Shown here piece after piece: positions 39,694 to 64,000 of a stretch of DNA of 64,000 bases. The position numbers and the translations under genes were made by a program. The DNA is taken from the IMG/VR virus record IMGVR_UViG_3300019360_000001. One strand, written 5' to 3'. The notes under the pieces were generated by a model, which was given only the letters and a program-made list of their open reading frames with translations, was not told where the DNA came from and made no database searches. Positions within the stretch are counted from its first letter, which is position 1. Each line of letters opens with the position of its first letter. The DNA is from a virus.

Positions 39694-41175
39694 TTGGCTA
39701 CAGAAGTTATAAAATCTATAAATCCTCTTGGCGGAGGGGATTATATAAGTTTAGCTGCTTGGGTTGCTGATAGACAAGGGGATTTGGTATCTAGAGATAC
39801 AATAGAAATTGCAGAAATATATGGTGGCGAATCTGTAGGAATATTAGACTTACAGGCATCAGGATGGACCACTAATTCAACGCATTATATTATTGTTAGA
39901 GCAGCATCAAATCAAGGTCACGACGGAATATTTAATATAAATAAAGCATATGTAAAAACAACATCTGGTCCTGCCATGGTTGTGGGGGTTCCTTATACTC
40001 GAATAGGGACCGGAATTTCAATAGAAACTACAGATTCATCTGTCACGGTTCCTTCTTTATATTGTGATGCCGGTACCGGAACTTGCATATTTGAAGGATT
40101 AATAGTAAGAAATCTCAATGGCTATACGGCTAGGATGTTTTCTTCTTCTCCGTTGGCGGCAAATGGAAATTTGGCCAGAAATTGTGTATTTTTACATGGA
40201 AATGGCAAAGAAACATATTGCATCGAAACCGGAGATATAAGCGGCACTACTCCTGGTGTTCATTTTACATTTTATAATTGTACAATAGTACAGCTTAGAC
40301 TAGATGAAGATTGCGTGTTTACTAGGGCATCTTCTCCTCCGTCTGATAATGCGGCTTTTGAAAATTGTTATTTTTATGGCAATGAAATAATATATGGTGG
40401 TAACGGTGGTACTATAAAAGGCGATAATGATGCAACTAGTAATAATGAAGCAAAGCAATCTGGCCTAAGAAATGTTCTTCTTAATACCGATAATTTTACT
40501 AATGTTGACTATAGTACATTTGATGCCAGAATAAAACCAGCCTCTGTTTTAGTTAAAGCCGGCAAAAACTTGTCTGCCGGTATTTTTGGCTTTGAAATAG
40601 ATTACGAAGAAGATCCCAGAGATGGCCCATTTGATATAGGCGCAGATGAAATATATCCAAATGAAATAGTAGATCTTATAGATATGATTCAGACAGATCT
40701 AGGGCTGGATTCTTCTTTTACAGAGTCAATGATTAATACTTTCATTATTAAAGCTATCAGAAGAATAAATAGGAGACTAGGCTTTACTGGGACAAGCAAT
40801 GAAATTTCAATTGATTTTGAAAGAAAACTAATAACTCCAACGCCAAACGATACAATACTTGATTTAATCATTATGCAAACGGAATGTTTAATAATGAAAA
40901 ATAAGTCAAGCAAAGCAGGAAGTTCGGGCATAAGACTTAAAGATGGAGATTCTGAAGTTGATTTGGGAGCAGGAGCCAAGGTTACTATTGATTTAACAAA
41001 TTCAATATGCAAAGAACTAAATGATGCAATTATAGAATATCTTTATAGAGCAACTCAGGGCGATGTAATATGGTATGGAAACAGAAGAATTACACAAGAT
41101 ATGGACCACGATAACGAGGGGGATGGATCAGAAAGAGATTTTAGTTCTCCGTTTGATAGTTCAAGAGGCGCATAA
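39694..41175 (+). CDS. virion protein: beta-helix (pectin-lyase-like) module fused to adaptor-like C-terminal domain
   Basis: GGGDYISLAAW module ending DIGADE; helical C-terminus; TTG start with AGGAG SD. Confidence 0.6.
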   Translation: MATEVIKSINPLGGGDYISLAAWVADRQGDLVSRDTIEIAEIYGGESVGILDLQASGWTTNSTHYIIVRAASNQGHDGIFNINKAYVKTTSGPAMVVGVPYTRIGTGISIETTDSSVTVPSLYCDAGTGTCIFEGLIVRNLNGYTARMFSSSPLAANGNLARNCVFLHGNGKETYCIETGDISGTTPGVHFTFYNCTIVQLRLDEDCVFTRASSPPSDNAAFENCYFYGNEIIYGGNGGTIKGDNDATSNNEAKQSGLRNVLLNTDNFTNVDYSTFDARIKPASVLVKAGKNLSAGIFGFEIDYEEDPRDGPFDIGADEIYPNEIVDLIDMIQTDLGLDSSFTESMINTFIIKAIRRINRRLGFTGTSNEISIDFERKLITPTPNDTILDLIIMQTECLIMKNKSSKAGSSGIRLKDGDSEVDLGAGAKVTIDLTNSICKELNDAIIEYLYRATQGDVIWYGNRRITQDMDHDNEGDGSERDFSSPFDSSRGA

Positions 41176-42536
41176 TGCCAGATCCTTTTTATGCATCACT
41201 TAGACCAAAGGGCGGAAGCCCTTATAATAAAAGAGAATTATTATTTGGTAGCGGATTATTCGTTAATCAAGTAGGTACTAGAATTTATATTGATTTAAAT
41301 TCTCAGTCTTTTGTTTCTGGAGTAATCGGTCCACAAGGTCCATCAGGAAATCAAGGCATTCAAGGATTACAAGGAATTCAGGGAATAGCAGGACAAGACG
41401 GAGAAGATGGGCAAGATGGAGCAACAGGATCTCAAGGCCCTACAGGTCCTTCTGGTGCAATTGGACCACAAGGTGATCAAGGAATTCAAGGGCTACAAGG
41501 TATACAAGGCAACCAAGGGATTCAAGGTATCCAAGGAGTTGCTGGACCATCTGGTTTAAGCACAGCAGACCCACAACTAAGAGAAGATTTTACTAATGCT
41601 TCTGGAGTATGGGTGAAAGATGGAACTAATCTTGGACTTGGCAAAAAAGTTTTCAAGCAAAAAAACGCCTTAAATAACTTAGAATTTAGAACTATAATTG
41701 CTGGGAGCGGTATACAGTTAACTGAAAATAGCAATGATATTGTATTTGACAATACCTTAGTTGATGATCTTGCATTAACAGATAGTATAGCAACAAAACT
41801 ACGTACTGATTTTAGTAATGCATCTGGCCTATGGATAAAAACAGCTAGCAATATTGGTTCTTCAGGTATTGGTCTATTCAAGCAAAAATATGGCTCCAAT
41901 CTTGAATTCAAGAAAATAGTTGCTGAATCTAACATTACTATAACAGAAAATACTAGTTCTTTGACATTTAATAGTGATGACACAAGCAAAATTAGTACAT
42001 CTTCTAATTCTGGCTCTGGAATTACAATTGCCAAAACAAAGCTTGGAACAGATTTGCCATTTAAATCATTAGTTGGCGGTGATGCTTGTACAGTAAATAG
42101 TCAAGAAAACGAGATTGTTGTTAATTGTGGACAAGATCAATTTACTATTATAGGAGCTTCAACATCTTGGCCATTGCAACCTTCTACTTTACAAGAATTT
42201 TCTAATAATAATCAAAGAAGAATAACAGTTGATTTGATAAATTATAAAAAGTTTAGAATATTAGCTAATGTAAATACTACTGGCTCTGCTTCTTCTGTAT
42301 TAGGCATTCAATATTCATTAGATGGTGGATCTACGTGGAAAGGAATGAACAACGGAACATCAGGTTCTAATAGTACAACAACGCTTTCTTTAAATGGGAC
42401 GGGATCAAAAGTGAGTTCTTGGGCAAATATATCATCTGAGGCCATTACGTATAATATTCTAGTAAGAATAGCTGGATCTGGCGGCAATTCTCTTGCTAGT
42501 CCGGCAGTGACTTTATTTGCTATACAATTCAAGTAA
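41175..42536 (+). CDS. collagen-like fibre protein
   Basis: 27 Gly-X-Y triplets plus three fibre repeats (LEFRTIIAGSGI / LEFKKIVAESNI / LPFKSLVGGDAC). Confidence 0.8.
   Translation: MPDPFYASLRPKGGSPYNKRELLFGSGLFVNQVGTRIYIDLNSQSFVSGVIGPQGPSGNQGIQGLQGIQGIAGQDGEDGQDGATGSQGPTGPSGAIGPQGDQGIQGLQGIQGNQGIQGIQGVAGPSGLSTADPQLREDFTNASGVWVKDGTNLGLGKKVFKQKNALNNLEFRTIIAGSGIQLTENSNDIVFDNTLVDDLALTDSIATKLRTDFSNASGLWIKTASNIGSSGIGLFKQKYGSNLEFKKIVAESNITITENTSSLTFNSDDTSKISTSSNSGSGITIAKTKLGTDLPFKSLVGGDACTVNSQENEIVVNCGQDQFTIIGASTSWPLQPSTLQEFSNNNQRRITVDLINYKKFRILANVNTTGSASSVLGIQYSLDGGSTWKGMNNGTSGSNSTTTLSLNGTGSKVSSWANISSEAITYNILVRIAGSGGNSLASPAVTLFAIQFK
41319..41561 (+). repeat. collagen Gly-X-Y repeat (27 triplets)
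   Basis: GVI GPQ GPS GNQ GIQ ... GPS GLS. Confidence 0.9.
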
Positions 42537-42546
42537 TAAGGTATTT

Positions 42547-44610
42547 ATGGCAACTATAATAGAAAAATTTATAGACCCAACAGGAGCCGGAGATTATGTA
42601 ACATTATCAGGTTGGGCTGCTGATAGAGTGGGAAATATAGTGTCACGAGACACTATAGAAATAGCCTCTATTAGAGGCGGTGGATCGGTTGGAGATGTGC
42701 ATTTAGGATCTGGCCACGGATGGGTTACAGATGAAGATCACTATATACACATAAGAGCAGCTTCTGGTCATGAACATCCAGGCTGTTTTGATAACACTAA
42801 AGCATTTATAAATGGCCGTAGAGATATTCCTATTTTTTGTCAGGTTGGATTTACTAGAATAGGCCCTGGAATTTCTATATACAATAATTTTGATAATCCA
42901 GATATTCCTGAGCATCCGGCATACGGAATGGCAATACACCAAGTTCATGAAGATAAACCATGCGTTGTTGATGGTTTGGCAATAAAACTAGATATTAGTT
43001 CTGTTGGAATTCTTGTTGAATGGTGCTACGGAGAAAGAGGCCACTTTATAAAAAACTGCACTATAGTTGGAGATTCTAATCCAATAACTGCAATAAGAGT
43101 TACTAATGCTAAAGCCACTGTTTATAATTGTGCATTAATTTCTAATGGTGGAATAGGATTACAAGGTGACAATGACGGAGGAGTTTTTGAGCCTATTTTT
43201 GGTCCCGCTGCCCCAGGAATTGTAATATCAGAAAATAATTATATTAGCGCAACTTCTGGCTATGTTGCTTTTGGCTCTGGTAGCTTTTTCGTTAAAGGAC
43301 AAAGCGATGTTACTTCTACAAATGAAGCAGTTAATCCATCTTATAGAAATATAGCCTATCAAGATGCTGGATTTTTGAATCCGTTTGCTGGTTCAGGAAC
43401 AGGATTACAAGAAAGAACTTGGCAAGATTTGCATTTAATTAAAACATCTTTCTTGAGAGGCAAGGGCGTTGATTTAAGAGAGAATGAAAACCCAGAAGCC
43501 AATGTTTTAACAGACATGGATGGATTTACAAGACCAGAAACGCCAGATGTGGGAGCATTACAATTCAAGGTGCCGCAAAAAATAATAAAAACCATTAAGC
43601 CATCTGGCGGAGATTATACTACTATTAATGCTTGGGAACAAGATAGGAGAGGTAATTTAGCAAGGCGAAATTCTATAGAAATTGCTGAGATATATTCTGG
43701 TACTAATAATGTTGGCTTAAGAATGTTGGCTGGTAATTGGGGAGTAAATTTACAGTCATATCCTGTTATTAGGGCTGCAACTGGACATTCTCATTCTGGG
43801 GTATTTGATGCAAATAAGGCTTATATTAAAAATAGTACTTCTATAAAAGAAGCAATATTCTGTACAGTTGGACATACACATATTGGTCCAGGACTTTCTA
43901 TTGAAAATAGTTTTTATACTGGGGTTTCGGAAGATCCTTATTGTATAAGAGCGTCTGGACTCATTAGAGGTGGACCATTTATTATAGAGCAGTGTTGTTT
44001 AAAAAATGCCGTAGAAAAAAACAATACAAAGATGGTTAAATCGGAAATTTGTTTTTACGACCCTAGTTTTCCTCATATTATTAAAAATTGTCAAATTTTT
44101 ACTGCTGGAGGGGACACAACTGCCCAAGGGCTATTATTGCACGGCTCAAAATGGAAAGTATATAATAATATTATTTATACATTTGGGTCCTTGGCAACTG
44201 CAATTATATCAGATGGCGGAGAATTAAAATGTGAAAACAATTATATTGCTTGTAATAGAAAATCCTATGATGTGCAGGGCGGCGGCACAATAATTAAAGG
44301 ATTTAGGGATGCGACACAAAATGATGAGGCACTAAATCCCAGTTTAAGCGGTATTTTACGTATAAATAGTGTTTTCCTTGATGCTGATCCAATAGGCTAT
44401 CCTAATGTTGCACCTAATAACTATTTGCCGTTAGGATCTCCTTTAAGGGCTTCTGGCATAAACTTAAGTAATCAACATAGAGAATATCTATCGGTCGTAA
44501 AAGATATAAGGGGAAAATTAAGAACGGTTCCCTATGATATAGGAGCCTTTGAGGCTACTAATCCAGGAGAGGAATCGGTATCAACAGATAACTTTTTTGT
44601 ATTATTTTAG
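42547..44610 (+). CDS. virion protein with two tandem beta-helix modules
   Basis: GDYVTLSGW...DVGALQ and GDYTTINAW...DIGAFE. Confidence 0.7.
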   Translation: MATIIEKFIDPTGAGDYVTLSGWAADRVGNIVSRDTIEIASIRGGGSVGDVHLGSGHGWVTDEDHYIHIRAASGHEHPGCFDNTKAFINGRRDIPIFCQVGFTRIGPGISIYNNFDNPDIPEHPAYGMAIHQVHEDKPCVVDGLAIKLDISSVGILVEWCYGERGHFIKNCTIVGDSNPITAIRVTNAKATVYNCALISNGGIGLQGDNDGGVFEPIFGPAAPGIVISENNYISATSGYVAFGSGSFFVKGQSDVTSTNEAVNPSYRNIAYQDAGFLNPFAGSGTGLQERTWQDLHLIKTSFLRGKGVDLRENENPEANVLTDMDGFTRPETPDVGALQFKVPQKIIKTIKPSGGDYTTINAWEQDRRGNLARRNSIEIAEIYSGTNNVGLRMLAGNWGVNLQSYPVIRAATGHSHSGVFDANKAYIKNSTSIKEAIFCTVGHTHIGPGLSIENSFYTGVSEDPYCIRASGLIRGGPFIIEQCCLKNAVEKNNTKMVKSEICFYDPSFPHIIKNCQIFTAGGDTTAQGLLLHGSKWKVYNNIIYTFGSLATAIISDGGELKCENNYIACNRKSYDVQGGGTIIKGFRDATQNDEALNPSLSGILRINSVFLDADPIGYPNVAPNNYLPLGSPLRASGINLSNQHREYLSVVKDIRGKLRTVPYDIGAFEATNPGEESVSTDNFFVLF

Positions 44611-44619
44611 GGGGATATA

Positions 44620-45123
44620 ATGAGCTTACTGCCTTATGATAAAGGATCAACCGGAAGGTATCTAGTTATAGATCCTTCTGGCAGAGTTGTTACTACATCT
44701 GACCCTGCCGGAGGTCTTTATCCTCTAGGATTTGGAAGTACTGGGCGGGCAGTGATGGTAGATGCTTCTGGAAGATTAGTTACTTCTCCAGAAAGTTCTT
44801 TGCCAAGTGTATTAAGCTCTAATTTTGTTGAGTTGCCATCTGCAACCGGAATAACAGTAAATCTTAATGATGGTAATAATTACTTTGTTGACTTAGAACA
44901 TGATACTACGCTTACTTTAAACAATCCTACTGATGGTGCAACTTATAGATTTGTCTTTAGAAACAATGGTACATCAGATGTAACCTTTCCTGCTGCCGTT
45001 GCATTTAAAGGCGCCATAGAACCAGCACTAACACAAGTTTCTGGCGCACTTGATTTAGTTTCATTACTTTATGTTGGTCCAATTTCTACATATATTGGCG
45101 ATACCTCAACCGACTTTTCTTAA
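44620..45123 (+). CDS. virion appendage protein
   Basis: Internal repeat GSTGR..V.D.SGR.VT; C-terminal domain paralogous to 46138..46593. Confidence 0.6.
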   Translation: MSLLPYDKGSTGRYLVIDPSGRVVTTSDPAGGLYPLGFGSTGRAVMVDASGRLVTSPESSLPSVLSSNFVELPSATGITVNLNDGNNYFVDLEHDTTLTLNNPTDGATYRFVFRNNGTSDVTFPAAVAFKGAIEPALTQVSGALDLVSLLYVGPISTYIGDTSTDFS

Positions 45124-47138: not shown

Positions 47139-47776
47139 TGGCTAAGATAAGAGTTTTAAATAGCAGAGAATTAGATCTACAAATACAAAATGCCATTAAG
47201 AGCAAAATGGAGGGGGTTTTTACAAAGGCACAATCTTTGTTAATTGAACAAGCAAAAGTATATAGAGATGCTTTTGCTAATAGTGCAGAATTCAATAACA
47301 TGAAGACTAAACTAGTTGGGGAATTTGGATTTACGCCAGATGAGCTTGCCGGTCTAGATAAAGTCCTAGATTTATTAATGCCACAAAATGAAGTAACTAC
47401 ATCTTTTTTGGACACTGTTGGCTCCACAAAGTTTTTGATATTAGAATGGGTAGATTATCAGAAATTAAAAACACATCCATTGGTGCAACATCCATTAACT
47501 AAATTAGACAAATTTGGAAAAGTAGTTAGCGTAACCGATGTTATTTCTTGGGTAGAATGGCTAGAAGAAGGGGTTACTGTTGCTGGATATAGCTTTTTTA
47601 GGCCAAATAATAAAAACATTGATAGATCAAGAAGCAAACAAGGACTTATGAGAAAGTCAAATGGGTTTTTCGTAATAGATCCAACAAGAATATTTGAAAA
47701 AATAGGCAATGAAGCAAACAATAAAGTTTTGCGCCGTGGTTTTGGGGCACTTGTCCGGAAAGTAGGGAGACAATGA
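47138..47776 (+). CDS. putative neck / tail-completion protein
   Basis: Position; WVEWL, SRSKQGLM. Confidence 0.45.
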   Translation: MAKIRVLNSRELDLQIQNAIKSKMEGVFTKAQSLLIEQAKVYRDAFANSAEFNNMKTKLVGEFGFTPDELAGLDKVLDLLMPQNEVTTSFLDTVGSTKFLILEWVDYQKLKTHPLVQHPLTKLDKFGKVVSVTDVISWVEWLEEGVTVAGYSFFRPNNKNIDRSRSKQGLMRKSNGFFVIDPTRIFEKIGNEANNKVLRRGFGALVRKVGRQ

Positions 47777-48639
47777 ATACTTTTGGTCTAAGTGCGCAAA
47801 CTAGATTTAATATAAAATCAACATTAGATTTGCTTTTTATTAATAATGGACTTTATGTAAATGTAGCAAGTGGGCAATATGATGTTAGTGGCGACAGAGC
47901 TGATTTTTTAAAAAGAGTATCGTCAACACTTTATGAAAGTCCGTTTGATAACTGGATTTATGAATCAGATGCTTCTGGTATTTCTCCTTATCAGCCAGAA
48001 GTTGCCTCTGGTGTCTATATAAATGGTGCGTTCAATCAAAAGGGAAGCGGTGTTTATAAGCCAAGAATAGACTATAGAAACGGTAGAGTATTTTTTGATA
48101 ATCCTGTACCTGCGAATAGCATAATTACTGCTAAATTTTCCTATAAGGGCGTAAGAAACGATTTCCCGGACTCTAGGAAGGTAAATTGGATATTTTCCAA
48201 ACTTAAAGATGCAATAGACTTTACAGAAAACGTATATCCTTCTGGATTTCAGAGACAGCTCCCCGCTGTCATAATAGACGTACAAAAGAGATTTTCTAGG
48301 CCATTTGCTATAGGCGGAGCTAAAAATCATAACACTTTAGTTGTTTTACATGTTTTGGCCAATTCTAATAATAGCCTAGAACGTATAAATGATTTACTTA
48401 CAGAAGAGTCATTTAGGAAGCCAATAAAAGCAATAAATTTTAATAAAATACCAGTATTATTCACCAATAAAGGCGATTTAGCAACGACTTATAAACCATT
48501 TACACAGTTACAGGGAGATTTAGCATTTGAGGCCCCTAAATTGTATATTGATAAAGCCGAACTTATTAGTGTTAATGAAATAAGAGGTGTTTGGATAAGC
48601 AGAGTAGACTGGACTGTAACTAGCTATCATTTGCCCTAA
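47773..48639 (+). CDS. putative tail terminator protein
   Basis: QLPAVIID...PFAIGG...LHVLA; precedes tail tube. Confidence 0.55.
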   Translation: MNTFGLSAQTRFNIKSTLDLLFINNGLYVNVASGQYDVSGDRADFLKRVSSTLYESPFDNWIYESDASGISPYQPEVASGVYINGAFNQKGSGVYKPRIDYRNGRVFFDNPVPANSIITAKFSYKGVRNDFPDSRKVNWIFSKLKDAIDFTENVYPSGFQRQLPAVIIDVQKRFSRPFAIGGAKNHNTLVVLHVLANSNNSLERINDLLTEESFRKPIKAINFNKIPVLFTNKGDLATTYKPFTQLQGDLAFEAPKLYIDKAELISVNEIRGVWISRVDWTVTSYHLP

Positions 48640-55400: not shown

Positions 55401-58188
55401 TTCTAGGCTTAAACTTAGAGATACATTAGATGCAGAGAAATCTAAGCTAGAGGGTTTGCTTGCACAGGCCAAATCTCAAAAAGCAGAAGACTTAGAAATA
55501 CAAAACATTCAAAGGCAGCTATCAGATGTAACTCAAAAAAGAGAATCATTGGAAAAAGCTGTTTCTTCTGCAAAACAATCGCAAAAATCAATTGAAGAGG
55601 AAATAGTAAAACTTGAACAAAAAGCAAGCGAAATTGCAACAGAAGACCTAAAAAAGATAACGGATATAGCCAAGGCTAGACAAAGTATTGCATCAGAAAC
55701 ACAATTAATTACTCAAGGCATTATAGCAGAAAGTGCGGAATTTAGTAGACAAGTTAAATTGCTAGAAGCACAAGCCGCAAGAAGAACCGAAATAAGTAGA
55801 CTAACTATATTAGGTGGTACACTAGCAACTAGAGCTATAGTCGAAGAAACTGCTTCCAGGCTTCAATCAGAAGAAGAAATAGGAAAACTTAGAGAAATTC
55901 AACAAAAGAGAATAAAGTTTCTTATTGCCGAGGAAACAGCAGCTAGAGCCGCAAAAGATAACGCCGAGGCAGACAGAATAAAGAAAGTAAGAGAAGAGTT
56001 TGAAAAAGCATCATCTCAACGTATTAAAGAAGTTTCTCAAGAATTTAACATTAAACTTAAAGCTACACTAGATGATAAAGCAGTAGAAAATATTAAACGT
56101 ATTGAAGATTCTTTACAACAATTTAGACTTAACACTATAGAAAGAGTTATTGAGGCAGAAAAGCAAGCAGCGCAAAAAAGAATTGATGCAGTTAAACAAA
56201 TAGGCGAAACTACTGCTGGTAAAGAATTTTTACAAAGACAATTCAAGCCTGCTCCCGAAGATGTTAGAACTTTTGGTTTTGTTGGATCAATTATTGCAGA
56301 AAATCTTGAGCAAGGTACTGATACTGCTGTTAAAGGAATGTTGCAAAAACTTGACCAACTTAGAGTTGGCGGTTTAAATTCATTTGAAGATTTGCGTTCT
56401 GCAACTGAAAAACAAAAAGAAGCTGCCGCTGAATTAGATGGACTTGTAAGAAGAGGCGCAAATGCTACTAAGATACAAGAGGCAAAAACTAAACTAGAAC
56501 AAGCTAATGCCACAGTTTTAAAATTAGCAAACAGTGGAGCAGATGCCTTTGAGATACTTGCTGCCACACAACAAAATCAATTAGATTTAATAAGACTAAA
56601 TGAAGAAGAAGTTGGGGCAAAAAGACAACTTATATTAGATAATCTAAAAGCGTCTTCAGAAAGAGTAAATGCGGCAGAGCAATCTCTTGTCGAAGCAAGA
56701 AATAAGATTCCTCCATTAAATGCACAAGTGATTGAATCAGAAAAAGAAGTCGCCGCAGCCAATGCAGAGGTATCAGTCGCAAGTCAAGAATTGCAAAAGG
56801 CTTATCAAGCAGTTGCAGATGCTCAGTTTAAATTGAACTCTGAGATAGCAATTGCAGAGTTTAGAGCAAAACAAGCAACCGGATCTTTTCATGGTACTGG
56901 CGAGCAAATAGCATTCTTACAAAATACTTTATTTCAGTTAAATACATCTATTAAGGCTTCAGCGGAAACTATACTAGAAGTTAGGCGCCAAATACTGCAA
57001 GAAGAGCTAAATCTATTACAAGGACAATTTAATACCGTTAAGAGTCTAGCATTAGAAGCAGCAACAGGAGGTCCTGAAGTAGCCGCAAGAATTACACAAC
57101 AAATTGCAGCGGCACAAGAAATTTCACGAGGAGCAAGTATAAGTGAATTTTCGCCAGACTTAATTCAGGGTATAGAAAGATTATTCGGAGTAATTGATGG
57201 ACTAGAACAAGCTGTAACAGAACAAGGTCTTGCTTCTCTTGGGTTATCTGAAAATACTCTTGACAATATGGGAGTTAGTATTGTTGAACTTAGCAAACAA
57301 ATAGCAGAAACTGGTAAAACACAAGTTGATCAAGCAGTTGAACAGGTTAGATTGGCTCAAGAAAACTTGCTAAAAGCAGAAGAGCAAAAAATCATAGCAC
57401 AACAACAATTAGAACTAACTAGAGGCAACAGAGAAATTGCACTAAGAGGAGTTTCTGCTAGTTCTGAAAGTCTTGGTATTTTGCGCTTTGGATTTAGAGA
57501 TACTCTTAATAATAGCATTAAACAATTAAGTAGACTAGAAGATTTAAGAGAAACTATTAATAATGCACAAGATGCCAACATTAAAGTTTTACAAGAATCT
57601 GTTAACCAAATAACAGAGTTAAAGGCTATTTCTGAAAAGCAATTAGGAGTTTTAAGCTCTATTTCACGATTAAGTGTTCCAACTACCGGTGGTGGAGTAA
57701 CTACTGCTGCTGGAGGTACACTTTCCGCCTTTGAATTCTTTGGCTTGTTAAAAGCTGCCAGAAAAGAAAAGAGAGGAATGCCATCAGGATCTAGATTAAT
57801 GTTGGCCAATACATCCGAGGTTGTGTTCACGAAGAAACAGGCAAAAATGCTTGGATTTGCAGGAAGACCAATGGCAAATGCACAAACTGGAAATGCAGAA
57901 GTTGTTGGCGGAGGACAAACTGAGGCACTAACAACTGCTTTGAATACTTTAATGAATAAACTAAATAACCCGGGTTTTATTAATCAAAATATTAGTGTTC
58001 AATTAGACCAACAAAGAAGAATAGATGTTAGTGGACTTGAAGGTATAGAATCTGCCGTTAAAAATGCATTTGAGCAAAGAATGCGAACAACTGCATCTAA
58101 AGATGAGCAAACGGCAATTGCTGACGTAGTTTCATCTATAGTCGGTAGGCTATCAGAATTAGGAATTGTAAATTCTCAAGGAAGCTAA
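52492..58188 (+). CDS. tail tape measure protein
   Basis: 1898 aa, Ala/Gln/Glu-rich helical, TP901-type core (SGSTIGAALKTIF). Confidence 0.92.
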   Translation: MPRDLIIQAGIQFNPKDVDTRAIRDAITKTLANTQLSLSKVRFSSDVRRTLQDSFSKITFSIDKASIGSSARAKLQENFGAIHFVVQNARFGAQAIAGLKGSLSNIQVSLNQVRLAGGAQKAVQSAAAGTAGPSPITANATNALAAASKTASQRFKDQNVKLLDIVNNTTAADRATQNYLRSIIQTAGSAETFGQKIGQITTRFSAYIIALKAVLLAQEAFNSSLKFIFDFDAALQDLQKVINTTPAGLESISASLFNIANNTGKSVTAAAAALNEFFRAGLGTEEALKRTEAALVGVNVTGLSVEESTKLITSALTVFKDELKDGISVIDLLTVADVKAAASAQEIARGILRSGAAAESVGVSFKELNAVTAATIEATQLSGSTIGAALKTIFANLAGNSQQLREQANAFGANINAGDSFFEILKKLSIIFPRLGTEQIAVLNQLLAGKRRFTELTGLLGNFGKALQIVEAENTATGTALERNNIELQKLSTQTQLTATAFQELIANVTGIGRGEEGIGSIRDLLKSALGVARDLATALNFVITTIKGAQGDVFSLDSAFKALIKAAIFTKGIDIIKGIIVGFKSFIFQSNSLTLSLNQNTKALLQQNSAITQQVSATAGVVQQQRAALAIEQRRLAIEKEIAGLQVKGGGASRQSSAGNAAKGLVDSVKPVLAGALLIGAQESADALKKLAKQAEEVNGFASKLESSLEFAAANGIELGATFALMFGVSKGLIAGLASASFSILNFALGAEASAQKFLKDTEKISARTLKLSDAQELFGERFGRSALQAVTGLEKVGNSAAGFGTILERVFTQQADASDNLQDQSIKLAQALEKVRGEVLGGIRAADIKKQFEDTAKGFRERSAAIDLKIKFGDLGSEFAPVTKLISETKASLQEFVDPIKTSQDLFNGIAKANKVVQELTAGTTRETSKILQDNGLVSERLGEIITQQERLNKLAEASNKEFQEAFDSRLKLRDTLDAEKSKLEGLLAQAKSQKAEDLEIQNIQRQLSDVTQKRESLEKAVSSAKQSQKSIEEEIVKLEQKASEIATEDLKKITDIAKARQSIASETQLITQGIIAESAEFSRQVKLLEAQAARRTEISRLTILGGTLATRAIVEETASRLQSEEEIGKLREIQQKRIKFLIAEETAARAAKDNAEADRIKKVREEFEKASSQRIKEVSQEFNIKLKATLDDKAVENIKRIEDSLQQFRLNTIERVIEAEKQAAQKRIDAVKQIGETTAGKEFLQRQFKPAPEDVRTFGFVGSIIAENLEQGTDTAVKGMLQKLDQLRVGGLNSFEDLRSATEKQKEAAAELDGLVRRGANATKIQEAKTKLEQANATVLKLANSGADAFEILAATQQNQLDLIRLNEEEVGAKRQLILDNLKASSERVNAAEQSLVEARNKIPPLNAQVIESEKEVAAANAEVSVASQELQKAYQAVADAQFKLNSEIAIAEFRAKQATGSFHGTGEQIAFLQNTLFQLNTSIKASAETILEVRRQILQEELNLLQGQFNTVKSLALEAATGGPEVAARITQQIAAAQEISRGASISEFSPDLIQGIERLFGVIDGLEQAVTEQGLASLGLSENTLDNMGVSIVELSKQIAETGKTQVDQAVEQVRLAQENLLKAEEQKIIAQQQLELTRGNREIALRGVSASSESLGILRFGFRDTLNNSIKQLSRLEDLRETINNAQDANIKVLQESVNQITELKAISEKQLGVLSSISRLSVPTTGGGVTTAAGGTLSAFEFFGLLKAARKEKRGMPSGSRLMLANTSEVVFTKKQAKMLGFAGRPMANAQTGNAEVVGGGQTEALTTALNTLMNKLNNPGFINQNISVQLDQQRRIDVSGLEGIESAVKNAFEQRMRTTASKDEQTAIADVVSSIVGRLSELGIVNSQGS

Positions 58189-58400: not shown

Positions 58401-59771
58401 ATGTCACAGCAAGTAGGTAGCACAAAAATGTTCGTGGGCCTATATCAATTTAGGCCAGTGCCATTATTTGATGTATCTACGGAACTAATAAGAGATGATG
58501 CCAATAATCCATTGTCATTAAGACATACTTATGATTTCCAAGGCACACTATTAGAAAGGCTTCCTTCTCAAAGCGGAACTTTCCCAGATATGTACTTGCA
58601 AAAAGAGCTATTGAAAAGGGCTCTTACAGAATCTGGAGTACAAGAATTTAGAATAACTTTTGAAAATAAGGTTGTTCAAAGCGGAATATTCCCAACTGTT
58701 ACTGATGTTTCATTTGAGGCTGGGGTTTGGGTAGATAGAATAAACTATACTTTTAGCTTTACTCATGACCAAGCAATTTCTGGTCAAGCTGCTATCAATG
58801 CTTTTTCTGATGAATGGACTTTTGACGAAAATGATGATAGGCGCACCATAAATGTTAACCATTCTATTTCTGCTGTTGGCGTTAATACTTCTATCTTGCC
58901 AGCCAGCAATGCATTAGATAATGCCAGAGATTTCGTTTTGCCAAGAACTGGCTATTCAAATGTTCCGGCTGGATACCCTGTTTTCGTTGAAGGATCTGGA
59001 TCTCTTAGTGCATTTCAAGAAAAGAGAAGCGAAAATATTAATGCCCAAAATGGTACATTTAGCGTTACAGAAAGTTTTATATTGTCCTCTGGCAATTTCG
59101 TTCACACACAAACAGGACAAATAAACACGGACTCAAATGGTATTAGCACAGTTTCATTAGACGGCAATATTAAAGGTCTGGGCAGAAAAGATGCCGCTTG
59201 GTTTCATGCTCTTTCTGCACTAAATACATATGTTAAGCCTTTGTTTCCATCAGATGCGTCTGGTATTTATATTGAGCTTGGCGGAGATGCAACGCTTTTT
59301 ACATTTGCACCAGAATCAGAAAGTTTTACTAAAAATAAATATACTGGTACAATTGACTATAGCATTTCTTTTACAGATGATCCTTCTCAGAATCTACCAT
59401 CTGGGATTCAAGATTTTACAATAACAGTACAAGACGATAAACCAGTAAGACTGTTTGCTTCGTTTGCTATAATGGAAAGATCTCTTGGAAATGTTGTGCA
59501 AGACATAGGAACTAGTACTGAAGGAACCTATAGTGTAGCGGGAAATGCTATAGGTGTTAGTAGTTTTCCTTTTGCGTCTCTTATTTCTTATTGTGAAGAT
59601 CGTATAAATGATCTAAAGCCCATGAGCATTAATTACGTTAATTTACGACTAGAACAACGTAGCATAACAAAAGATGAAGACCATAATACTTTATCATTTA
59701 ATATAGTATGGAAATACACTAAAGGATTAGGTGGAATACCTTCAGCAACAGATGATATAGTTTTAGATTAA
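58401..59771 (+). CDS. putative distal tail / tail-tip hub protein
   Basis: First structural gene after TMP; beta-rich. Confidence 0.6.
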   Translation: MSQQVGSTKMFVGLYQFRPVPLFDVSTELIRDDANNPLSLRHTYDFQGTLLERLPSQSGTFPDMYLQKELLKRALTESGVQEFRITFENKVVQSGIFPTVTDVSFEAGVWVDRINYTFSFTHDQAISGQAAINAFSDEWTFDENDDRRTINVNHSISAVGVNTSILPASNALDNARDFVLPRTGYSNVPAGYPVFVEGSGSLSAFQEKRSENINAQNGTFSVTESFILSSGNFVHTQTGQINTDSNGISTVSLDGNIKGLGRKDAAWFHALSALNTYVKPLFPSDASGIYIELGGDATLFTFAPESESFTKNKYTGTIDYSISFTDDPSQNLPSGIQDFTITVQDDKPVRLFASFAIMERSLGNVVQDIGTSTEGTYSVAGNAIGVSSFPFASLISYCEDRINDLKPMSINYVNLRLEQRSITKDEDHNTLSFNIVWKYTKGLGGIPSATDDIVLD

Positions 59772-59787: not shown

Positions 59788-60420
59788 ATGGAAAATCTTT
59801 GTAAATGTTGTAATAAAATAGTAGTTGTAAATATTAGTAAATTAAAAAACTACTGTGGCATTAATTGCTATAAAAGATTTAGAAGAAGTATTGATAAAAT
59901 AGAGGAAAAAATAAAATGTATTATTTGTGGCAATGAATGTATTAAAATACAGTCAAATCACAAGTATTGTTCAAGAAAATGTTTTAATGTTACAAGAAGA
60001 AAACGTCGAATAGAATATTCTAAGGTTTGTAAACTATGCAATAAAAATTTTATATGCAAAAGAAGTACCGCTAATTTTTGCAGTGCTATTTGTTCAAGAA
60101 AAGTTTATTATAGAAATAAACCAGATTTACTTAAAGCAACTAGGAAAAGATCATCTTATAATTTAAAAGAAAAACTTTTTAATATGTATGGTAGATATTG
60201 TTATTGTTGTGGCCAATCAGAGCCCGGATTTTTAACATTGGACCATGTAAAAAATGACGGATATAAAGATAGAAAAACAGAGGGATTGAGTAGTCATGCT
60301 ATTTACAGGAAAGCAATAAAGCATTATCGTCCAGATATTTATTGTATTTTATGTTATAATTGTAATCTTGCCAAGGCACATCTTGGAATATGCCCTCATA
60401 CTACTAAAGGAGATTTATGA
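59788..60420 (+). CDS. Zn-finger repeat HNH endonuclease
   Basis: Three CxxC..(Y/F)CxxxC fingers; CYCCG..FLTLDHVKNDG...LCYNCN. Confidence 0.85.
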   Translation: MENLCKCCNKIVVVNISKLKNYCGINCYKRFRRSIDKIEEKIKCIICGNECIKIQSNHKYCSRKCFNVTRRKRRIEYSKVCKLCNKNFICKRSTANFCSAICSRKVYYRNKPDLLKATRKRSSYNLKEKLFNMYGRYCYCCGQSEPGFLTLDHVKNDGYKDRKTEGLSSHAIYRKAIKHYRPDIYCILCYNCNLAKAHLGICPHTTKGDL

Positions 60421-61001
60421 CGCCTCCAGTATTTGTATTTCATGCCTTTGATCCTTCGGGTATCAATCCTAGCGGTTTTCGCCATCTAACAACTCATCCT
60501 TCTTTTATTAAAGTGTTGTCAACGGCACAAGGTCAATTTCTTGATTTTGGCACAAAAAATATTAAAGACGGCAAACAAACATCTGATACAAAAACAGTTG
60601 TTGGATTTTTTACTCAGTTTAATAGCGCAACAGAGGCTTTATTTAATTTGAGGTTTTGGATTTCTAATTTTGATGACTGGCAAGCAGGAACTTTTTTCTT
60701 TAATGGCTTTCCCTCTGGAAGATGGATACAAGGAATTAAACTGAATGATGCATCCGGTTATTATGTGCCAACTGTTTTGCCTAGTGGACAAAATTGGTGG
60801 AGAGATGCTGGCGGACCATTCAATAGGAATGACATTGCTTTCCAAGAATTAACTGCCAGTGGAATAGAAGGAAGTGGTATACCAAGTCAAGTTACTTTTC
60901 CATTTTATTTAAGTGTTACAGTAGATACAGATGTGCCAGTTGGGGTATATGGCGGAAATAACGGAATCTGGATCTACCGCTGCACTTTTGACTTTAGATA
61001 A
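60417..61001 (+). CDS. putative tail-tip protein
   Basis: Position; beta-rich; seven SG dipeptides. Confidence 0.55.
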   Translation: MTPPVFVFHAFDPSGINPSGFRHLTTHPSFIKVLSTAQGQFLDFGTKNIKDGKQTSDTKTVVGFFTQFNSATEALFNLRFWISNFDDWQAGTFFFNGFPSGRWIQGIKLNDASGYYVPTVLPSGQNWWRDAGGPFNRNDIAFQELTASGIEGSGIPSQVTFPFYLSVTVDTDVPVGVYGGNNGIWIYRCTFDFR

Positions 61002-61026
61002 TGCCTTCGATTTTATAGGGAGTTTT

Positions 61027-61761: not shown

Positions 61762-61766
61762 TATAA

Positions 61767-64000
61767 ATGAGATTTCTAGGTTTTCAGGGAATTGGATATT
61801 TGGGGCGACCTGCCGGCATAGGCAACCATCCTAAAAGATGGGCAAAATGGCCATATGCCGTATTGCAAGGTCCTTCTGGGCAATTGGTTCAGATATTGCC
61901 ACCGTCTGGAATTGCTGGTAAAATTCCAACCGCTGACCAAGTAGCCGCATTTCATTCTAATGAATGCACAATGAACCATTCATGTGTTGCTTGGAAACGT
62001 AGACACTTGGTTTTTGTTTGGTGTGATAGTAAAAACACCTCAAGTAGTATGAGATGCTATGCTTGGTCTCCTGAGCCACAAGAGGCAAGAAAAGTTAATC
62101 CGTCGGCAAACGTAAACGTAGACACAAATACAAACGTTAAAGATATAATAGTAGCAGACGGATTTCATTGGGAACTTTGGAACACATTTGCCAATATCAA
62201 AGACCATGCTGCATTGTTTGCCATTCATGATGGAATTTTATGGGTTAAAAGAGACAATGACACAAGAGATCATTGGGGAATATATAAAGGCAAAATTCCT
62301 TACAAACTAAGTACTGTCGGATATTTCTGGGCTTCAGCAGGCAATTATGGCAATCAAGGCGACCTAGAAGATGCAGGATGGTCTAGGTTACCGGAATGTG
62401 GAGCTAGTACTAGAAATATTCAAGACGGAGTAGACTTTTCTTCTCCTGGTTCTTATCCGGCAAATATTAGCCATAATTTATGTGAAATAGTAAAACATAA
62501 CGATACATTTTATGTAATAGGACAAGGATTTGTTAAAGGAATGACAATAGGCTGTAAAGGCAATTTTATTCATCATGACTATGGAATTGACAATAGAGTT
62601 GCCGTTGGTTCTTTAACTGGCTATGCGCAAAGAAAAACCAATGATGTGATAGGCGCTACCATGCGATCTGCATGTGTGCATAATGATAAAGTTTGGATGC
62701 TTACAAATGAAGGCAAAGTATATGAAATAAGACCAGGAGGACTTGTTGAGACAGCAGACTTAACTACTGTTGGGGCTCCTTGGGCCTCTGGAATAACAGG
62801 AGGGCAACTTGGAATAACGCCACCTGTTGGAGATTGGCAAGGCGCAACTGCTTTTAGGCCATTAATTAGAAGTTTTAATAATCAATTACATGCATTTCTA
62901 AACTTTAGAACATCTTATAAAATAGCTAGAGGAAAAGGAAACTTTAGCAGCAAAACACAGGGAGCAGGAATATGTTGGCTAACTTCTTTCGACGGCACAA
63001 ATTGGCATGATAGAAGCGAAATGTTGCCAACTAGCGGAATAATTACTCCAAGCGGAGGTAGGGTTCCAAAAGCAACTTGGTTGTCGCAAATAAACCCATA
63101 CATGCATTCTGCATTTACTAATACAAATTATCCTTCTGGATATGGACCAAAAGCCCCTAAGACAAACTTTCTAGGTCAAAGTGCTCCTATGTCTCAGGGT
63201 GCAGAAGCTAGGCCTTCTGGGTTAAAACAAATAACCTTATTGCCATTTTGGTCATCTGGCAATTTACTAGATGTAGAAGGGACAAAATTTAATCTATTAA
63301 AAACACCTCTTTCAAGAGGAGCTTTAAGCGGATGTTTATTTCCTACATTTATTGCTTATCCTTCTGGGTATGCATTCGTTAATCCACTTGGCGGAGATGC
63401 TTTAGGATTTTTGCCACAAGCATCTGGCGGTGTTTGGCGACCAATTAGAGGAGCCGGAAATAATGCCGGGGCTTCTGGCTGGGATTATACTGGATGTTCA
63501 AATTATCATATTGGAGGACTTACAGACAATGATACAGATGGGCAGCCTTTTTTAAGGTTATATTTTAGTAGAAATTTCGTTGGAACTACTCCCAATACAT
63601 CCAGCAAACAAATTCCTACTTTGTTTTATACATTAACAAAAGAATCTGGATTCTTGCAAGTAAACGAGGCTTGGAATGCTGGCCAATTGAATGGTGCATG
63701 TCCAGTTGAATTATACGACTATGAAGTAATTGTTCCATCTGGGGACATGTATAATCCTAATCCTAGAGTTGACACAATAAATAAACTTGCTAAATTGGAT
63801 TTTACTACTACAGATTGGTGGTTTTGGGAACCATGCAAAGTAAATATAGAATATTCAACAGATGGAGGATTAAGCTGGTTTAAAGCAAGTACAAGTGGAC
63901 AAGTTGTCAATCTTTCTACCGGAACATCTATCACAGATCCATCTGGAGTTGGTATAAGTGCTGCGCAAAATCATACAGTCTATTGGGAGTATGGCAAAGA
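61767..64000 (+). CDS. large tail-tip / receptor-binding protein, runs past the window end
   Basis: ATG 61767 (MRFLGFQGIG...); frame checked at several points up to the end; absent from ORF track because no stop is in the window. Confidence 0.7.
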   Translation, partial: MRFLGFQGIGYLGRPAGIGNHPKRWAKWPYAVLQGPSGQLVQILPPSGIAGKIPTADQVAAFHSNECTMNHSCVAWKRRHLVFVWCDSKNTSSSMRCYAWSPEPQEARKVNPSANVNVDTNTNVKDIIVADGFHWELWNTFANIKDHAALFAIHDGILWVKRDNDTRDHWGIYKGKIPYKLSTVGYFWASAGNYGNQGDLEDAGWSRLPECGASTRNIQDGVDFSSPGSYPANISHNLCEIVKHNDTFYVIGQGFVKGMTIGCKGNFIHHDYGIDNRVAVGSLTGYAQRKTNDVIGATMRSACVHNDKVWMLTNEGKVYEIRPGGLVETADLTTVGAPWASGITGGQLGITPPVGDWQGATAFRPLIRSFNNQLHAFLNFRTSYKIARGKGNFSSKTQGAGICWLTSFDGTNWHDRSEMLPTSGIITPSGGRVPKATWLSQINPYMHSAFTNTNYPSGYGPKAPKTNFLGQSAPMSQGAEARPSGLKQITLLPFWSSGNLLDVEGTKFNLLKTPLSRGALSGCLFPTFIAYPSGYAFVNPLGGDALGFLPQASGGVWRPIRGAGNNAGASGWDYTGCSNYHIGGLTDNDTDGQPFLRLYFSRNFVGTTPNTSSKQIPTLFYTLTKESGFLQVNEAWNAGQLNGACPVELYDYEVIVPSGDMYNPNPRVDTINKLAKLDFTTTDWWFWEPCKVNIEYSTDGGLSWFKASTSGQVVNLSTGTSITDPSGVGISAAQNHTVYWEYGK

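What the first reader, a model, noticed from the sequence alone, without database searches (positions are those of the whole stretch)
41175..64000. (P/A)-Ser-Gly motif enriched in exposed virion proteins: candidate virion O-glycosylation sequon linked to phage gmd
Seen (hand counts): 60417..61001 has 7 SG in 194 aa (7 of 14 Ser; PSG x4, ASG x2, GSG). 47773..48639 has 6 in 288 aa, 58401..59771 has 8 in 456 aa, the tail tube has 6, and the 61767 ORF has about 15 in about 745 aa (YPSGY x2, DPSG, WASG, QASG, GASG). Buried or lumenal proteins lack this: tape measure about 5 in 1898 aa, portal none seen, MCP 1. Ser codons vary (TCT, TCG, TCC, AGC, AGT), so the signal is at protein level. Known: Ser-Gly is the eukaryotic proteoglycan attachment motif, some phages glycosylate their virions, and Gmd starts GDP-fucose/rhamnose synthesis. 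Inference: a phage-encoded system modifies small-residue-S-G sites on tail and neck proteins to form a glycan coat. No glycosyltransferase lies in this window.
Basis: partly seen in the sequence, partly recalled or inferred. Interest (0 to 1): 0.75.

Follow-up and report, generated by a model that had tools for sequence, protein, structure and literature searches.

The report
Pro/Ala-Ser-Gly tag on phage tail proteins
The outer tail, baseplate and fibre proteins of this uncultured ~150-kb phage and its relatives carry the tripeptide Pro/Ala-Ser-Gly about eight to ten times more often than chance. The best guess, with no chemical evidence yet, is that this marks where the phage's own sugar-transfer enzymes decorate the virus particle.

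Summary
In the window's tail block, without tape measure and HNH genes, [PA]SG occurs 36 times against 4.3 expected. No shuffle out of 5000 exceeded 12. SG occurs 82 times against 39.9. Two fuller relatives repeat this: 80 vs 7.5 and 60 vs 7.4. There the excess lies almost entirely in the tail block. Tape measure, putative portal and capsid lack it.

It is not a generic beta-turn signal. [PA]DG, [PA]NG and [PA]TG, and NG, DG and TG, are not enriched. Tail proteins of T4, lambda and Bacillus phage G show nothing similar.

Ser in SG is conserved at 41 of 43 sites against 69 of 141 for other Ser. Across 72 distant subfamilies of one tail domain the density holds (SG 407 vs 140) while positions turn over, and 7 subfamilies lack it.

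Both relatives carry a GT9/GT2/GT4 cluster abutting the tail block. The sequon reading is plausible (about 0.45) but chemically unproven. The link to gmd is not supported: one relative has the motif but no true gmd.

A Ser-specific loop style with no modification remains a serious rival. Earlier unchecked notes of this scan report similar lineage-specific Ser/Thr-Gly motifs on other phage genomes.

The parts
41175..42536 (+). Collagen-like fibre protein, 453 aa. SG 13 vs 7.4 and [PA]SG 5 vs 0.63. Part of the count comes from G-P-S collagen triplets and part from a repeated NASG[VL]W unit.
   Evidence: Pfam Collagen, 52.8 bits. PHROGs tail fibre families. Shuffles. Site contexts.
42517..44610 (+). 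Fibre or baseplate-type protein, 697 aa. SG 12 vs 5.5 and [PA]SG 4 vs 0.67.
   Evidence: Shuffles, p 0.007 and 0.004. Shares a domain with the 985-aa fibre protein of G002.
44620..45123 (+). Small protein of the fibre block, 167 aa. [PA]SG 2 vs 0.26, a weak signal.
47773..48639 (+). Neck or tail-proximal protein just upstream of the tube gene, 288 aa. SG 6 vs 1.4 and [PA]SG 4 vs 0.16.
   Evidence: Shuffles, p < 0.001. 5 of 6 sites are conserved in G002. No family match.
49053..50324 (+). Tail tube protein, 423 aa. It has 6 SG (4.05 expected), all conserved in G002.
   Evidence: ESM Atlas look-alikes are Phage_tube_2 and Phi812 tail tube (score 0.96, TM 0.65-0.71).. The G002 ortholog has [PA]SG 4 vs 0.35.
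52492..58188 (+). Tape measure protein, 1898 aa. It serves as the internal negative control: SG 5 vs 10.2 and [PA]SG 1 vs 1.5.
   Evidence: Only 1 of 5 SG sites is conserved in G002. The tape measures of four relatives also lack the motif.
58401..59771 (+). First post-tape-measure protein, 456 aa. SG 8 vs 3.5, with 7 of 8 sites conserved.
   Evidence: Orthologs in all relatives are enriched.
60417..61001 (+). 194-aa beta-sandwich tail domain protein, the densest carrier of the motif. SG 7 vs 1.5 and [PA]SG 6 vs 0.16. All seven sites lie outside beta-strands in the model.
   Evidence: AlphaFold2 model with pLDDT 94.7 and pTM 0.90. Superfamily analysis.
61767..64000 (+). Large baseplate or fibre protein, 764 aa in the identical fragment L001 and cut by the window's end. 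SG 16 vs 6.4 and [PA]SG 11 vs 0.84.
   Evidence: 15 of 16 sites are conserved in G002.
10181..11191 (+). GDP-mannose 4,6-dehydratase (gmd). It is a real gene, but a link to the motif is not supported.
   Evidence: Pfam GDP_Man_Dehyd, 332.9 bits, full length. A true gmd is absent from relative c31, which keeps the motif.

Best explanation
[Pro/Ala/Gly]-Ser-Gly followed by a hydrophobic residue is a short recognition motif. It sits in ordered loops of the tube, baseplate and fibre proteins. Its Ser hydroxyl is modified in the host cytoplasm by phage-encoded soluble glycosyltransferases before or during tail assembly.

The likely enzymes are the GT9-type (heptosyltransferase-like) proteins, with extension by the GT2 and GT4 enzymes. 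They are encoded in a cluster that abuts the tail block in relatives and, according to earlier unchecked notes, about 14.6 kb past this window's end.

The result would be a sugar coat on the tail, possibly for stability, for masking, or to prevent sticking to host debris.

Shown: the motif, its specificity, its distribution, its conservation, its turnover, and the enzyme cluster and its synteny in relatives. Inferred: that the Ser is modified at all, which enzyme does it, and which sugar is used.
For: 1. Size and specificity of the signal. [PA]SG is 36 vs 4.3 in the window's tail block, 80 vs 7.5 in G002 and 60 vs 7.4 in c31. With Asp, Asn or Thr in place of Ser the same tripeptide sits at or near expectation: G002 D 4/5.4, N 6/5.8, T 4/6.3; window D 1/2.9, N 0/3.4, T 8/3.7. 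In the non-tail proteins of G002 the usual turn word [PA]DG is the enriched one (16/9.1), while [PA]SG is 11/9.9.

2. Position -1 prefers P (39/3.3), A (41/4.1) and G (26/6.6) and avoids D, N and L. Position +2 prefers V, I and F.

3. Distribution. In the complete genome G002, 15 of the 16 proteins flagged for the motif lie between 39.7 and 75.3 kb. Tape measure, chaperones, portal, capsid and about 110 other proteins lack it. Ten metagenome fragments of relatives show the same.

4. Controls. T4 tail set, SG 44 vs 41.9. Lambda tail set, SG, DG and NG all about 1.5 times expectation, which is the generic turn pattern. Phage G post-tape-measure proteins, 19 vs 21.6.

5. Selection. Ser in SG is conserved at 41/43 sites in the enriched proteins, against 69/141 for other Ser and 1/5 in the tape measure. 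Six TCN<->AGY codon switches occur at conserved sites.

6. Turnover at constant density. In 72 distant representatives of the 194-aa domain, SG is 407 vs 139.6 and [PA]SG 160 vs 16.1, while [ND]G is 119 vs 153.5. The sites spread over 71 columns and only 99 of 372 fall at the reference's columns. Seven representatives have 2 SG or fewer, so the fold does not need the motif.

7. At least nine BLAST-independent protein families carry the motif.

8. Enzymes. G002 encodes GT9, GT2, a GT9-GT2 fusion and an intein-bearing GT4 at 75.9-84.3 kb, converging on the tail block. The fusion's GT2 part matches best the flagellin O-GlcNAc transferase GmaR (E 1e-4). c31 has the same cluster in the same place. 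GT9-family contigs of 168,570, 42,359 and 173,087 bp coincide with contigs of the tail-domain family.

9. Precedent. The TibC/Aah heptosyltransferases modify Ser but not Thr, in the cytoplasm, in loops of beta-rich passenger domains. One mapped site is Ser313 in QNSGGAV (PMC4358343).

10. Complex prediction of GT9 with the 195-aa tail protein gave weak support. The score was 0.41 (runs 0.39, 0.41, 0.43) against a best control of 0.01. That mark was reached by 58 of 80 solved complexes and 2 of 110 mismatched pairs. At 0.60 or under it was reached by only 7 of the 80 solved complexes and by both mismatches that passed. The runs agree in at least 67% of contacts and the partner's pLDDT is at least 82.
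Against: - There is no chemical evidence of any modification, and the phage is uncultured.
- Near-perfect positional conservation among close relatives also fits a purely structural role.
- By sequence the GT9 proteins resemble LPS heptosyltransferases (WaaF 6e-17, WaaC), not TibC.
- Earlier unchecked notes report a PagL-like lipid A deacylase and an ADP-heptose pathway in this genome. That points to host LPS as an alternative target.
- The exposed major capsid protein lacks the motif.
- Non-target phage proteins show no depletion of [PA]SG (11 vs 9.9), although a promiscuous cytoplasmic enzyme might be expected to cause one.
- Solvent exposure of the Ser side chains could not be measured. Only secondary structure was available: none of the 7 sites lies in a strand, but about 70% of the model's residues lie outside strands anyway.
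- All three fuller genomes belong to one lineage, so motif and enzyme cluster occurring together is not independent evidence.
Confidence: 0.45

Rival explanations
1. The motif is a structural loop style with no modification. [PA]-S-G-hydrophobic would be the preferred way in this broad group of phages to build tight, ordered loops such as 3:5 hairpins with a Gly at positive phi. Ser would be chosen over Asn and Asp because Asn-Gly deamidates and Asp-Gly isomerises in long-lived extracellular particles.
For: - All seven sites of the 194-aa protein lie outside beta-strands, several directly after strand ends.
- Flanks are hydrophobic and strand-like.
- Gly is the more conserved partner at the best-conserved site (G 62 of 70, Ser 43 of 70, with Val, Ile and Ala as replacements).
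- NG is depleted in the window's tail block (19 vs 31.4), and [PA]NG is 0 in the window and in c31.
- Positions are 95% conserved between close relatives.
Against: - The SG excess (+42 in the window) far exceeds the NG and DG deficit (about -15).
- Capsid and portal, which are equally long-lived, show no shift.
- T4, lambda and phage G tail proteins show no such style.
- Seven subfamilies keep the fold without the motif. In the others the sites move while density stays at three times expectation. That pattern is unusual for a fold-determined feature.
- It gives no reason for the conserved glycosyltransferase cluster beside the tail genes.
Confidence: 0.35
2. The motif is read by something other than a glycosyltransferase. 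Candidates are another Ser modification (phosphorylation, acylation, ADP-ribosylation) or a docking signal for a tail assembly chaperone. The phage glycosyltransferases would then remodel host LPS or envelope instead.
For: - By sequence the GT9 proteins are nearest to LPS heptosyltransferases.
- G002 encodes GmhA-like and PfkB kinase genes of a heptose pathway, PMM, sugar methyltransferases and an S26 signal peptidase.
- Earlier unchecked notes report a PagL-like lipid A deacylase in this genome.
- The window carries Macro and NADAR domain proteins.
Against: - No kinase or acyltransferase was found beside the tail genes in the ORFs scanned.
- Only the nucleotide-sugar-binding half of the phage GT9 family aligns to WaaF or WaaC. 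The acceptor half is divergent, and a C-terminal four-Cys extension is added.
- The tight synteny of the GT cluster with the fibre genes in two diverged relatives is not explained by this reading.
Confidence: 0.12
3. The signal arises by chance, composition or shared ancestry alone. Either the excess reflects Ser- and Gly-rich composition, or one repeated domain has been copied many times.
For: Some carriers are paralogs: the 194-aa domain recurs in three G002 proteins, the collagen-like fibres contain internal repeats, and two fibre proteins share a domain.
Against: - All tests keep each protein's composition, and no shuffle out of 5000 comes near the observed counts.
- GS, the reverse dipeptide, is not enriched (38 vs 40).
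- At least nine BLAST-independent families carry the motif.
- Within the one superfamily examined, the sites are not inherited in place.
Confidence: 0.03

Closest known systems
Bacterial autotransporter heptosyltransferases Aah/TibC acting on AIDA-I, TibA and Ag43 (PMC4358343)
   Same: Cytoplasmic hyperglycosylation of many Ser (not Thr) in short loops between beta-strands of a beta-rich surface protein, by a GT-B enzyme of the heptosyltransferase kind. One mapped acceptor is Ser in N-S-G-G. The enzyme gene lies beside the substrate gene. The enzyme carries a four-Cys metal finger, and the phage GT9 family has four invariant C-terminal Cys.
   Different: The phage GT9 proteins do not match TibC or an NCBIfam autotransporter heptosyltransferase model. 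The Cys spacing differs. The substrates are a dozen unrelated tail proteins rather than one beta-helix. GT2 and GT4 enzymes suggest a longer glycan. No modification has been shown.
Mycobacteriophage virion glycosylation by phage-encoded glycosyltransferases (Che8-type; Freeman et al. 2023, Cell Host Microbe, cited from memory and from earlier notes, not read here)
   Same: Phage-encoded glycosyltransferases next to structural genes, with virion proteins as the proposed targets.
   Different: As I recall, the targets there are capsid and tail tube subunits, with no short sequon defined. Here the capsid lacks the motif, the targets are the tube, baseplate and fibre proteins, and a defined Ser-specific tripeptide is present. 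The host is probably Gram-negative-like.
Listeria GmaR flagellin O-GlcNAc transferase (PDB 22ao)
   Same: Best solved-structure match of the GT2 part of the 611-aa GT9-GT2 fusion (E 1e-4). It is a soluble cytoplasmic GT2 that O-glycosylates Ser/Thr of a surface filament protein before export.
   Different: The match is weak and covers only about 120 residues. GmaR has no known [PA]SG sequon.
Eukaryotic proteoglycan xylosylation at Ser-Gly
   Same: A Ser-specific O-glycosylation site followed by Gly, often preceded by Gly.
   Different: That site needs acidic flanks (from general knowledge). Here the flanks are hydrophobic and Asp at -1 is depleted (1 vs 4.2). No related enzyme was seen.
Generic type I turn plus G1 bulge hairpin loops, [P/A/E/K]-[D/N/S]-G
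   Same: The same three-residue geometry is possible, and the motif lies in loops after strands.
   Different: In ordinary proteins Asp and Asn are at least as common as Ser. Lambda's tail proteins and this phage's own non-tail proteins show that. In the tail block only Ser is enriched, about tenfold.

Membership tests
GDP-mannose 4,6-dehydratase (Pfam PF16363), window ORF 10181-11191 | Full-length match above the curated cut-off | tested here: met
   332.9 bits against a cut-off of 27, profile positions 1-332 of 332.
Glycosyltransferase family 9 (Pfam PF01075): proteins of relatives G002 and c31 | Match above the curated cut-off and similarity to solved heptosyltransferases | tested here: met
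   G002 377-aa protein 50.6 bits and the 611-aa fusion 25.6 bits, against a cut-off of 22. The family profile A2 hits WaaF (1psw) at 6e-17 and WaaC at 7e-8. c31 has two hits, 65 and 43 bits. The window's own copy lies outside the window and was not seen here.
Autotransporter O-heptosyltransferases (BAHT: Aah/TibC) | Sequence membership (TibC-like catalytic domain) | tested here: not met
   TibC is not among the PDB hits of profile A2 up to E 10. The NCBIfam hits are LPS heptosyltransferase I, II and III only, all below their cut-offs.
Autotransporter O-heptosyltransferases (BAHT: Aah/TibC) | Four-Cys iron finger inserted in the C-lobe | tested here: inconclusive
   Four invariant Cys (C307, C313, C334, C339 of the 377-aa protein) lie beyond the WaaF-like part. 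Their spacing differs from TibC's C339, C342, C358, C370 (PMC4358343). Metal binding is not testable here.
Autotransporter O-heptosyltransferases (BAHT: Aah/TibC) | Ser-only acceptors in short loops between beta-strands | tested here: inconclusive
   The motif is Ser-specific and none of the 7 modelled sites lies in a strand. That these Ser are acceptors is not shown.
Phage virion glycosylation systems (mycobacteriophage type) | Phage-encoded glycosyltransferases adjacent to structural genes | tested here: met
   Met in relatives G002 (75.9-84.3 kb, abutting a tail block that ends at 75.3 kb) and c31 (71.9-81.4 kb, abutting a tail block that starts at 82.6 kb). For this genome it is known only from earlier unchecked notes.
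Phage virion glycosylation systems (mycobacteriophage type) | Glycan mass on virion proteins | not testable with these tools
   Needs mass spectrometry or glycan staining of particles or of recombinant proteins.
Proteoglycan-type Ser-Gly xylosylation site | Acidic residues flanking (G)-S-G | tested here: not met
   Flanks are enriched in I, V, L and F. Asp at -1 is 1 vs 4.2 expected.
Generic [PA]-[DNS]-G beta-turn | Asp and Asn enriched alongside Ser | tested here: not met
   [PA]DG is 4/5.4, 9/5.6 and 1/2.9. [PA]NG is 6/5.8, 0/4.6 and 0/3.4. [PA]SG is 80/7.5, 60/7.4 and 36/4.3. The order in each case is G002, c31, window.

The most novel reading that the evidence does not exclude
A heptosyltransferase-like GT9 enzyme with its own four-Cys finger evolved separately from Aah/TibC. 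It reads [Pro/Ala/Gly]-Ser-Gly-hydrophobic in folded loops and O-glycosylates a dozen different tail, baseplate and fibre proteins in the cytoplasm. This would make a sequon-directed sugar coat on the tail. Phages gain and lose sites freely, as animal viruses do with N-glycan shields. The system would be widespread in uncultured phages, since 65 of 72 subfamilies of one tail domain keep the motif.
Probability: 0.3. Interest if true: 0.8.

Novelty: new variant of a known kind. Interest (0 to 1): 0.62.

Why it matters
If the Ser residues are glycosylated, this would be a defined, predictable sequon for phage virion O-glycosylation. It would cover many unrelated tail proteins and be readable from sequence alone. 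Glycan-coated phages could then be recognised in metagenomes. The enzyme and acceptor could be tested directly with two genes in E. coli. It would also bear on why some phages evade receptors, debris or defences through a sugar coat.

If the Ser residues are not modified, the result still shows a strong, lineage-wide, Ser-specific loop code in tail proteins. Structure prediction and annotation currently ignore it.

Tried and rejected
The genomic contexts of the 46 close homologs and 94 distant representatives, including the seven SG-poor subfamilies, could therefore not be fetched. The planned co-occurrence test across independent lineages could not be run.
- The window's own genome is not held. 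Its glycosyltransferase cluster was not seen directly. The identical fragment L001 ends about 4 kb past the window.
- The first AlphaFold2 run, with 25 close homologs, gave pLDDT 45 and was discarded.
- Fold searches with the good model found no convincing known fold. Foldseek against PDB gave nothing at E <= 0.001. VIA-align gave a best Z of 6.8 over generic beta-sandwiches and pilins. In the viral library the best matches were Bacillus phage G gp173 and an SP-15 protein at TM about 0.5.
- Sequence searches found nothing for the SG-rich proteins. This covers PDB, PHROGs and Pfam, apart from the collagen-like fibre and the fibre-tip protein 46126-46593. blastn and tblastn against cultured phages found nothing, except a weak capsid match to Bacillus phage G.
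- The ESM Atlas gave no usable hit for the 764-aa protein.
- Metagenome records behind loci are not held for whole-record search.
- Three loci around distant GT9 genes of megaphages show no motif excess. They are not tail regions, so this is uninformative.
- DNA hypermodification was considered as the glycosyltransferases' target. The window's ThyA homolog scores as a true thymidylate synthase (TIGR03284, 191 bits against a cut-off of 108). Nothing supports a hydroxymethyl-pyrimidine route, though it is not excluded.
- The Kuenenia S-layer O-glycan site (G-S/T-X, PMC5088730) is a different motif.

Full report
**What the window is.** The 64-kb window comes from an uncultured phage with low GC content (29-37%). 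All credible genes lie on the + strand.
- The first half carries PhoH, thymidylate synthase, DHFR, gmd (10181-11191), a DNA methylase, an IS200/IS605 pair, intein-bearing IMPDH/GMP reductase and ribonucleotide reductase, a sigma-70-like protein and an intein-bearing large terminase.
- Capsid-module genes follow, with the major capsid protein at 38580-39596.
- From 39.7 kb come fibre-like proteins, connectors, a tail tube protein (49053-50324), chaperones and a 1898-aa tape measure.
- After the tape measure come the baseplate or fibre proteins, interleaved with two HNH-endonuclease-like ORFs.
- No cultured phage is related, apart from a weak capsid match to Bacillus phage G.
- No whole genome is held for this window.

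**Checking the observation.**
- Composition-preserving shuffles give SG 6 vs 1.4 for 47773, 7 vs 1.5 for 60417, 16 vs 6.4 for 61767, 12 vs 5.5 for 42517 and 8 vs 3.5 for 58401. The tape measure has 5 vs 10.2.
- [PA]SG is far more extreme: 6 vs 0.16, 11 vs 0.84 and 4 vs 0.16.
- Pooled over the tail block without tape measure and HNH genes, [PA]SG is 36 vs 4.3 (maximum of 5000 shuffles 12) and SG is 82 vs 39.9 (maximum 61).
- Among all 400 dipeptides SG ranks first and PS second. GS, TG, DG and NG are at or below expectation.

**Replication in relatives.** Two fuller genomes were fetched and analysed in the same way.
- G002 is a complete 168,570-bp IMG/VR genome with terminal repeats. Its copy of the 194-aa protein is 71% identical to the window's.
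- c31 is a 154,790-bp contig binned in an Omnitrophota MAG, with 49% identity.
- In G002, SG is 168 vs 74.8 in the tail block (z 10.8) and [PA]SG is 80 vs 7.5. Of the 16 proteins flagged, 15 lie between 39.7 and 75.3 kb. Tape measure, chaperones, portal, capsid and about 110 other proteins are at expectation.
- c31 gives 60 vs 7.4, and its tape measure 2 vs 2.1.
- Ten shorter metagenome fragments show the same in every post-tape-measure protein.

**Is it only turn propensity?** No.
- In G002's tail block the tripeptide [PA]xG is 80/7.5 for Ser but 4/5.4 for Asp, 6/5.8 for Asn and 4/6.3 for Thr.
- In the rest of the same genome the ordinary turn word [PA]DG is the enriched one (16/9.1), while [PA]SG is 11/9.9. 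The window and c31 agree.
- Position -1 takes Pro, Ala or Gly and avoids Asp, Asn and Leu. Position +2 prefers Val, Ile and Phe. Positions -3 and -4 are hydrophobic.
- Control tail sets behave differently. T4 shows nothing (SG 44 vs 41.9, rank 141). Lambda shows the generic pattern, with SG, DG and NG all about 1.5 times expectation. Phage G post-tape-measure proteins show nothing (19 vs 21.6).

**Selection.**
- Between the window and G002, Ser in SG is conserved at 41 of 43 sites in the enriched proteins. Other Ser in the same proteins are conserved at 69 of 141, and SG Ser in the tape measure at 1 of 5.
- At 40 conserved sites there are 12 synonymous changes within a codon family and 6 TCN<->AGY switches.
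- At least nine BLAST-independent families carry the motif, although some carriers are paralogs.

**One carrier in depth.** The 194-aa protein (60417-61001) belongs to a large domain superfamily with 94 representatives at 50% clustering.
- With a 70-sequence alignment AlphaFold2 gives pLDDT 94.7 and pTM 0.90. The fold is a beta-sandwich with long ordered loops. None of the seven SG sites lies in a strand, and several follow strand ends directly. Coordinates are not returned, so exposure could not be measured.
- No convincing known fold was found.
- Across 72 distant representatives SG is 407 vs 139.6 and [PA]SG is 160 vs 16.1. [ND]G is 119 vs 153.5 and TG is 87 vs 114. The -1 and +2 preferences are the same as in the close relatives.
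- The sites spread over 71 alignment columns. Only 99 of 372 fall at the reference's six columns. Some of this spread is alignment error.
- Seven representatives have two SG or fewer, so the fold does not need the motif.
- Constant density with moving positions looks more like a selected short motif than a fold-determined residue.

**Enzymes.** No glycosyltransferase lies in the window.
- In G002 the tail block ends at 75.3 kb. Converging on it from the other strand are a GT9 protein (377 aa), a GT2, an MT-A70 methylase, a GT9-GT2 fusion (611 aa) and a GT4 split by an intein.
- The fusion's GT2 part matches best the flagellin O-GlcNAc transferase GmaR (E 1e-4).
- The GT9 family matches WaaF and WaaC in its nucleotide-sugar half only. 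It does not match TibC, and it carries four invariant C-terminal Cys.
- G002 also has gmd, an intein-bearing dehydratase/epimerase, a GmhA-like gene, a PfkB kinase, PMM, further GT2s and sugar methyltransferases.
- c31 has the same GT4, GT9-GT2 and GT9+GT2 cluster abutting its tail block. It has no true gmd and no GmhA-like gene on the contig. The motif therefore does not depend on phage gmd.
- Contig lengths tie three GT9 homologs to the contigs of three tail-domain homologs.
- Earlier unchecked notes place the same cluster about 14.6 kb past this window's end. They also list an ADP-heptose pathway and a PagL-like gene elsewhere in this genome.

**Mechanism proposed.** The closest working model is the Aah/TibC system. 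There a heptosyltransferase modifies many Ser, but not Thr, in the cytoplasm, in loops of a beta-rich surface protein. One mapped site is Ser in N-S-G-G (PMC4358343). I propose that a phage GT9-type enzyme does the same at [PAG]-S-G-hydrophobic loops of the tube, baseplate and fibre proteins, and that the GT2 and GT4 enzymes extend the glycan.

A complex prediction of GT9 with the 195-aa protein gave weak support:
- The score was 0.41 against a best control of 0.01.
- That mark was reached by 58 of 80 solved complexes and 2 of 110 mismatched pairs.
- At 0.60 or under it was reached by only 7 of the 80 solved complexes and by both mismatches that passed.
- The runs agree in at least 67% of contacts, and the partner's pLDDT is at least 82.

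**Rivals.**
- A purely structural, Ser-specific loop style is the main rival. It may be driven by avoidance of labile Asn-Gly and Asp-Gly. It fits the loop location, the strong positional conservation among close relatives and the NG depletion. It does not explain the size of the excess, the absence from capsid and portal, the controls, the turnover or the enzyme synteny.
- The glycosyltransferases may instead remodel host LPS. In that case the motif would need another reader.
- Chance and composition are excluded.

**Verdict.** The sequon reading is the best single explanation at about 0.45 but is unproven. The gmd link is not supported. Earlier unchecked notes of this scan describe comparable lineage-specific Ser/Thr-Gly motifs beside glycosyltransferase clusters in other phage genomes, so this may be one case of a wider pattern.

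Noticed in passing
window 59788-60420 and 60931-61761: Two HNH-endonuclease-like ORFs sit between baseplate genes. They occupy the same positions in G002 (28% and 52% identity). Relative L025 has no ORF at either position. The identical fragment L001 has a shorter second ORF (174 vs 276 aa). They are probably mobile homing genes.
   Followed up: partly
window 14650-17157, 18093-20354, 20989-25953, 29787-32852: Inteins with LAGLIDADG or HNH domains interrupt an unidentified protein, IMPDH/GMP reductase, ribonucleotide reductase and the large terminase. In G002, inteins also split the GT4, DNA polymerase III alpha and a sugar dehydratase. This is an unusually heavy intein load.
   Followed up: no
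window 12480-14100: An IS200/IS605 element (Y1 transposase plus TnpB/Cas12f-like protein) lies inside the phage genome, next to a Macro domain gene.
   Followed up: no
window 4587-5042 and 12023-12490: NADAR and Macro domain proteins are both ADP-ribose-removing folds. They may counter ADP-ribosylating host defences.
   Followed up: no
window 27591-28232: A sigma-70 region 2-like protein is the only non-structural window protein with a nominally significant [PA]SG count (2 LPSG vs 0.05 expected). This is probably chance among 58 proteins tested.
   Followed up: no
G002 (L017:17474-17974, minus strand): An S26 signal peptidase gene lies inside the phage's second sugar cluster, next to GT2s, methyltransferases and PMM.
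   Followed up: no
L043 / G008:C31 (JAJDCA010000037.1): A 154,790-bp relative of this phage is binned in an Omnitrophota MAG. Other homologs are labelled with archaeal MAG names. Bacterial-type DNA polymerase III alpha and the sigma factor argue for a bacterial host. The binning may be a host clue or an error.
   Followed up: partly
alignment A2 (GT9 family of relatives): Four invariant Cys lie near the C-terminus (C307, C313, C334, C339 of the 377-aa protein), beyond the part that aligns to WaaF. This may be a metal finger.
   Followed up: partly
window 6669-7946: A BCS1-like AAA ATPase sits between PhoH and thymidylate synthase, which is unusual for a phage.
   Followed up: no
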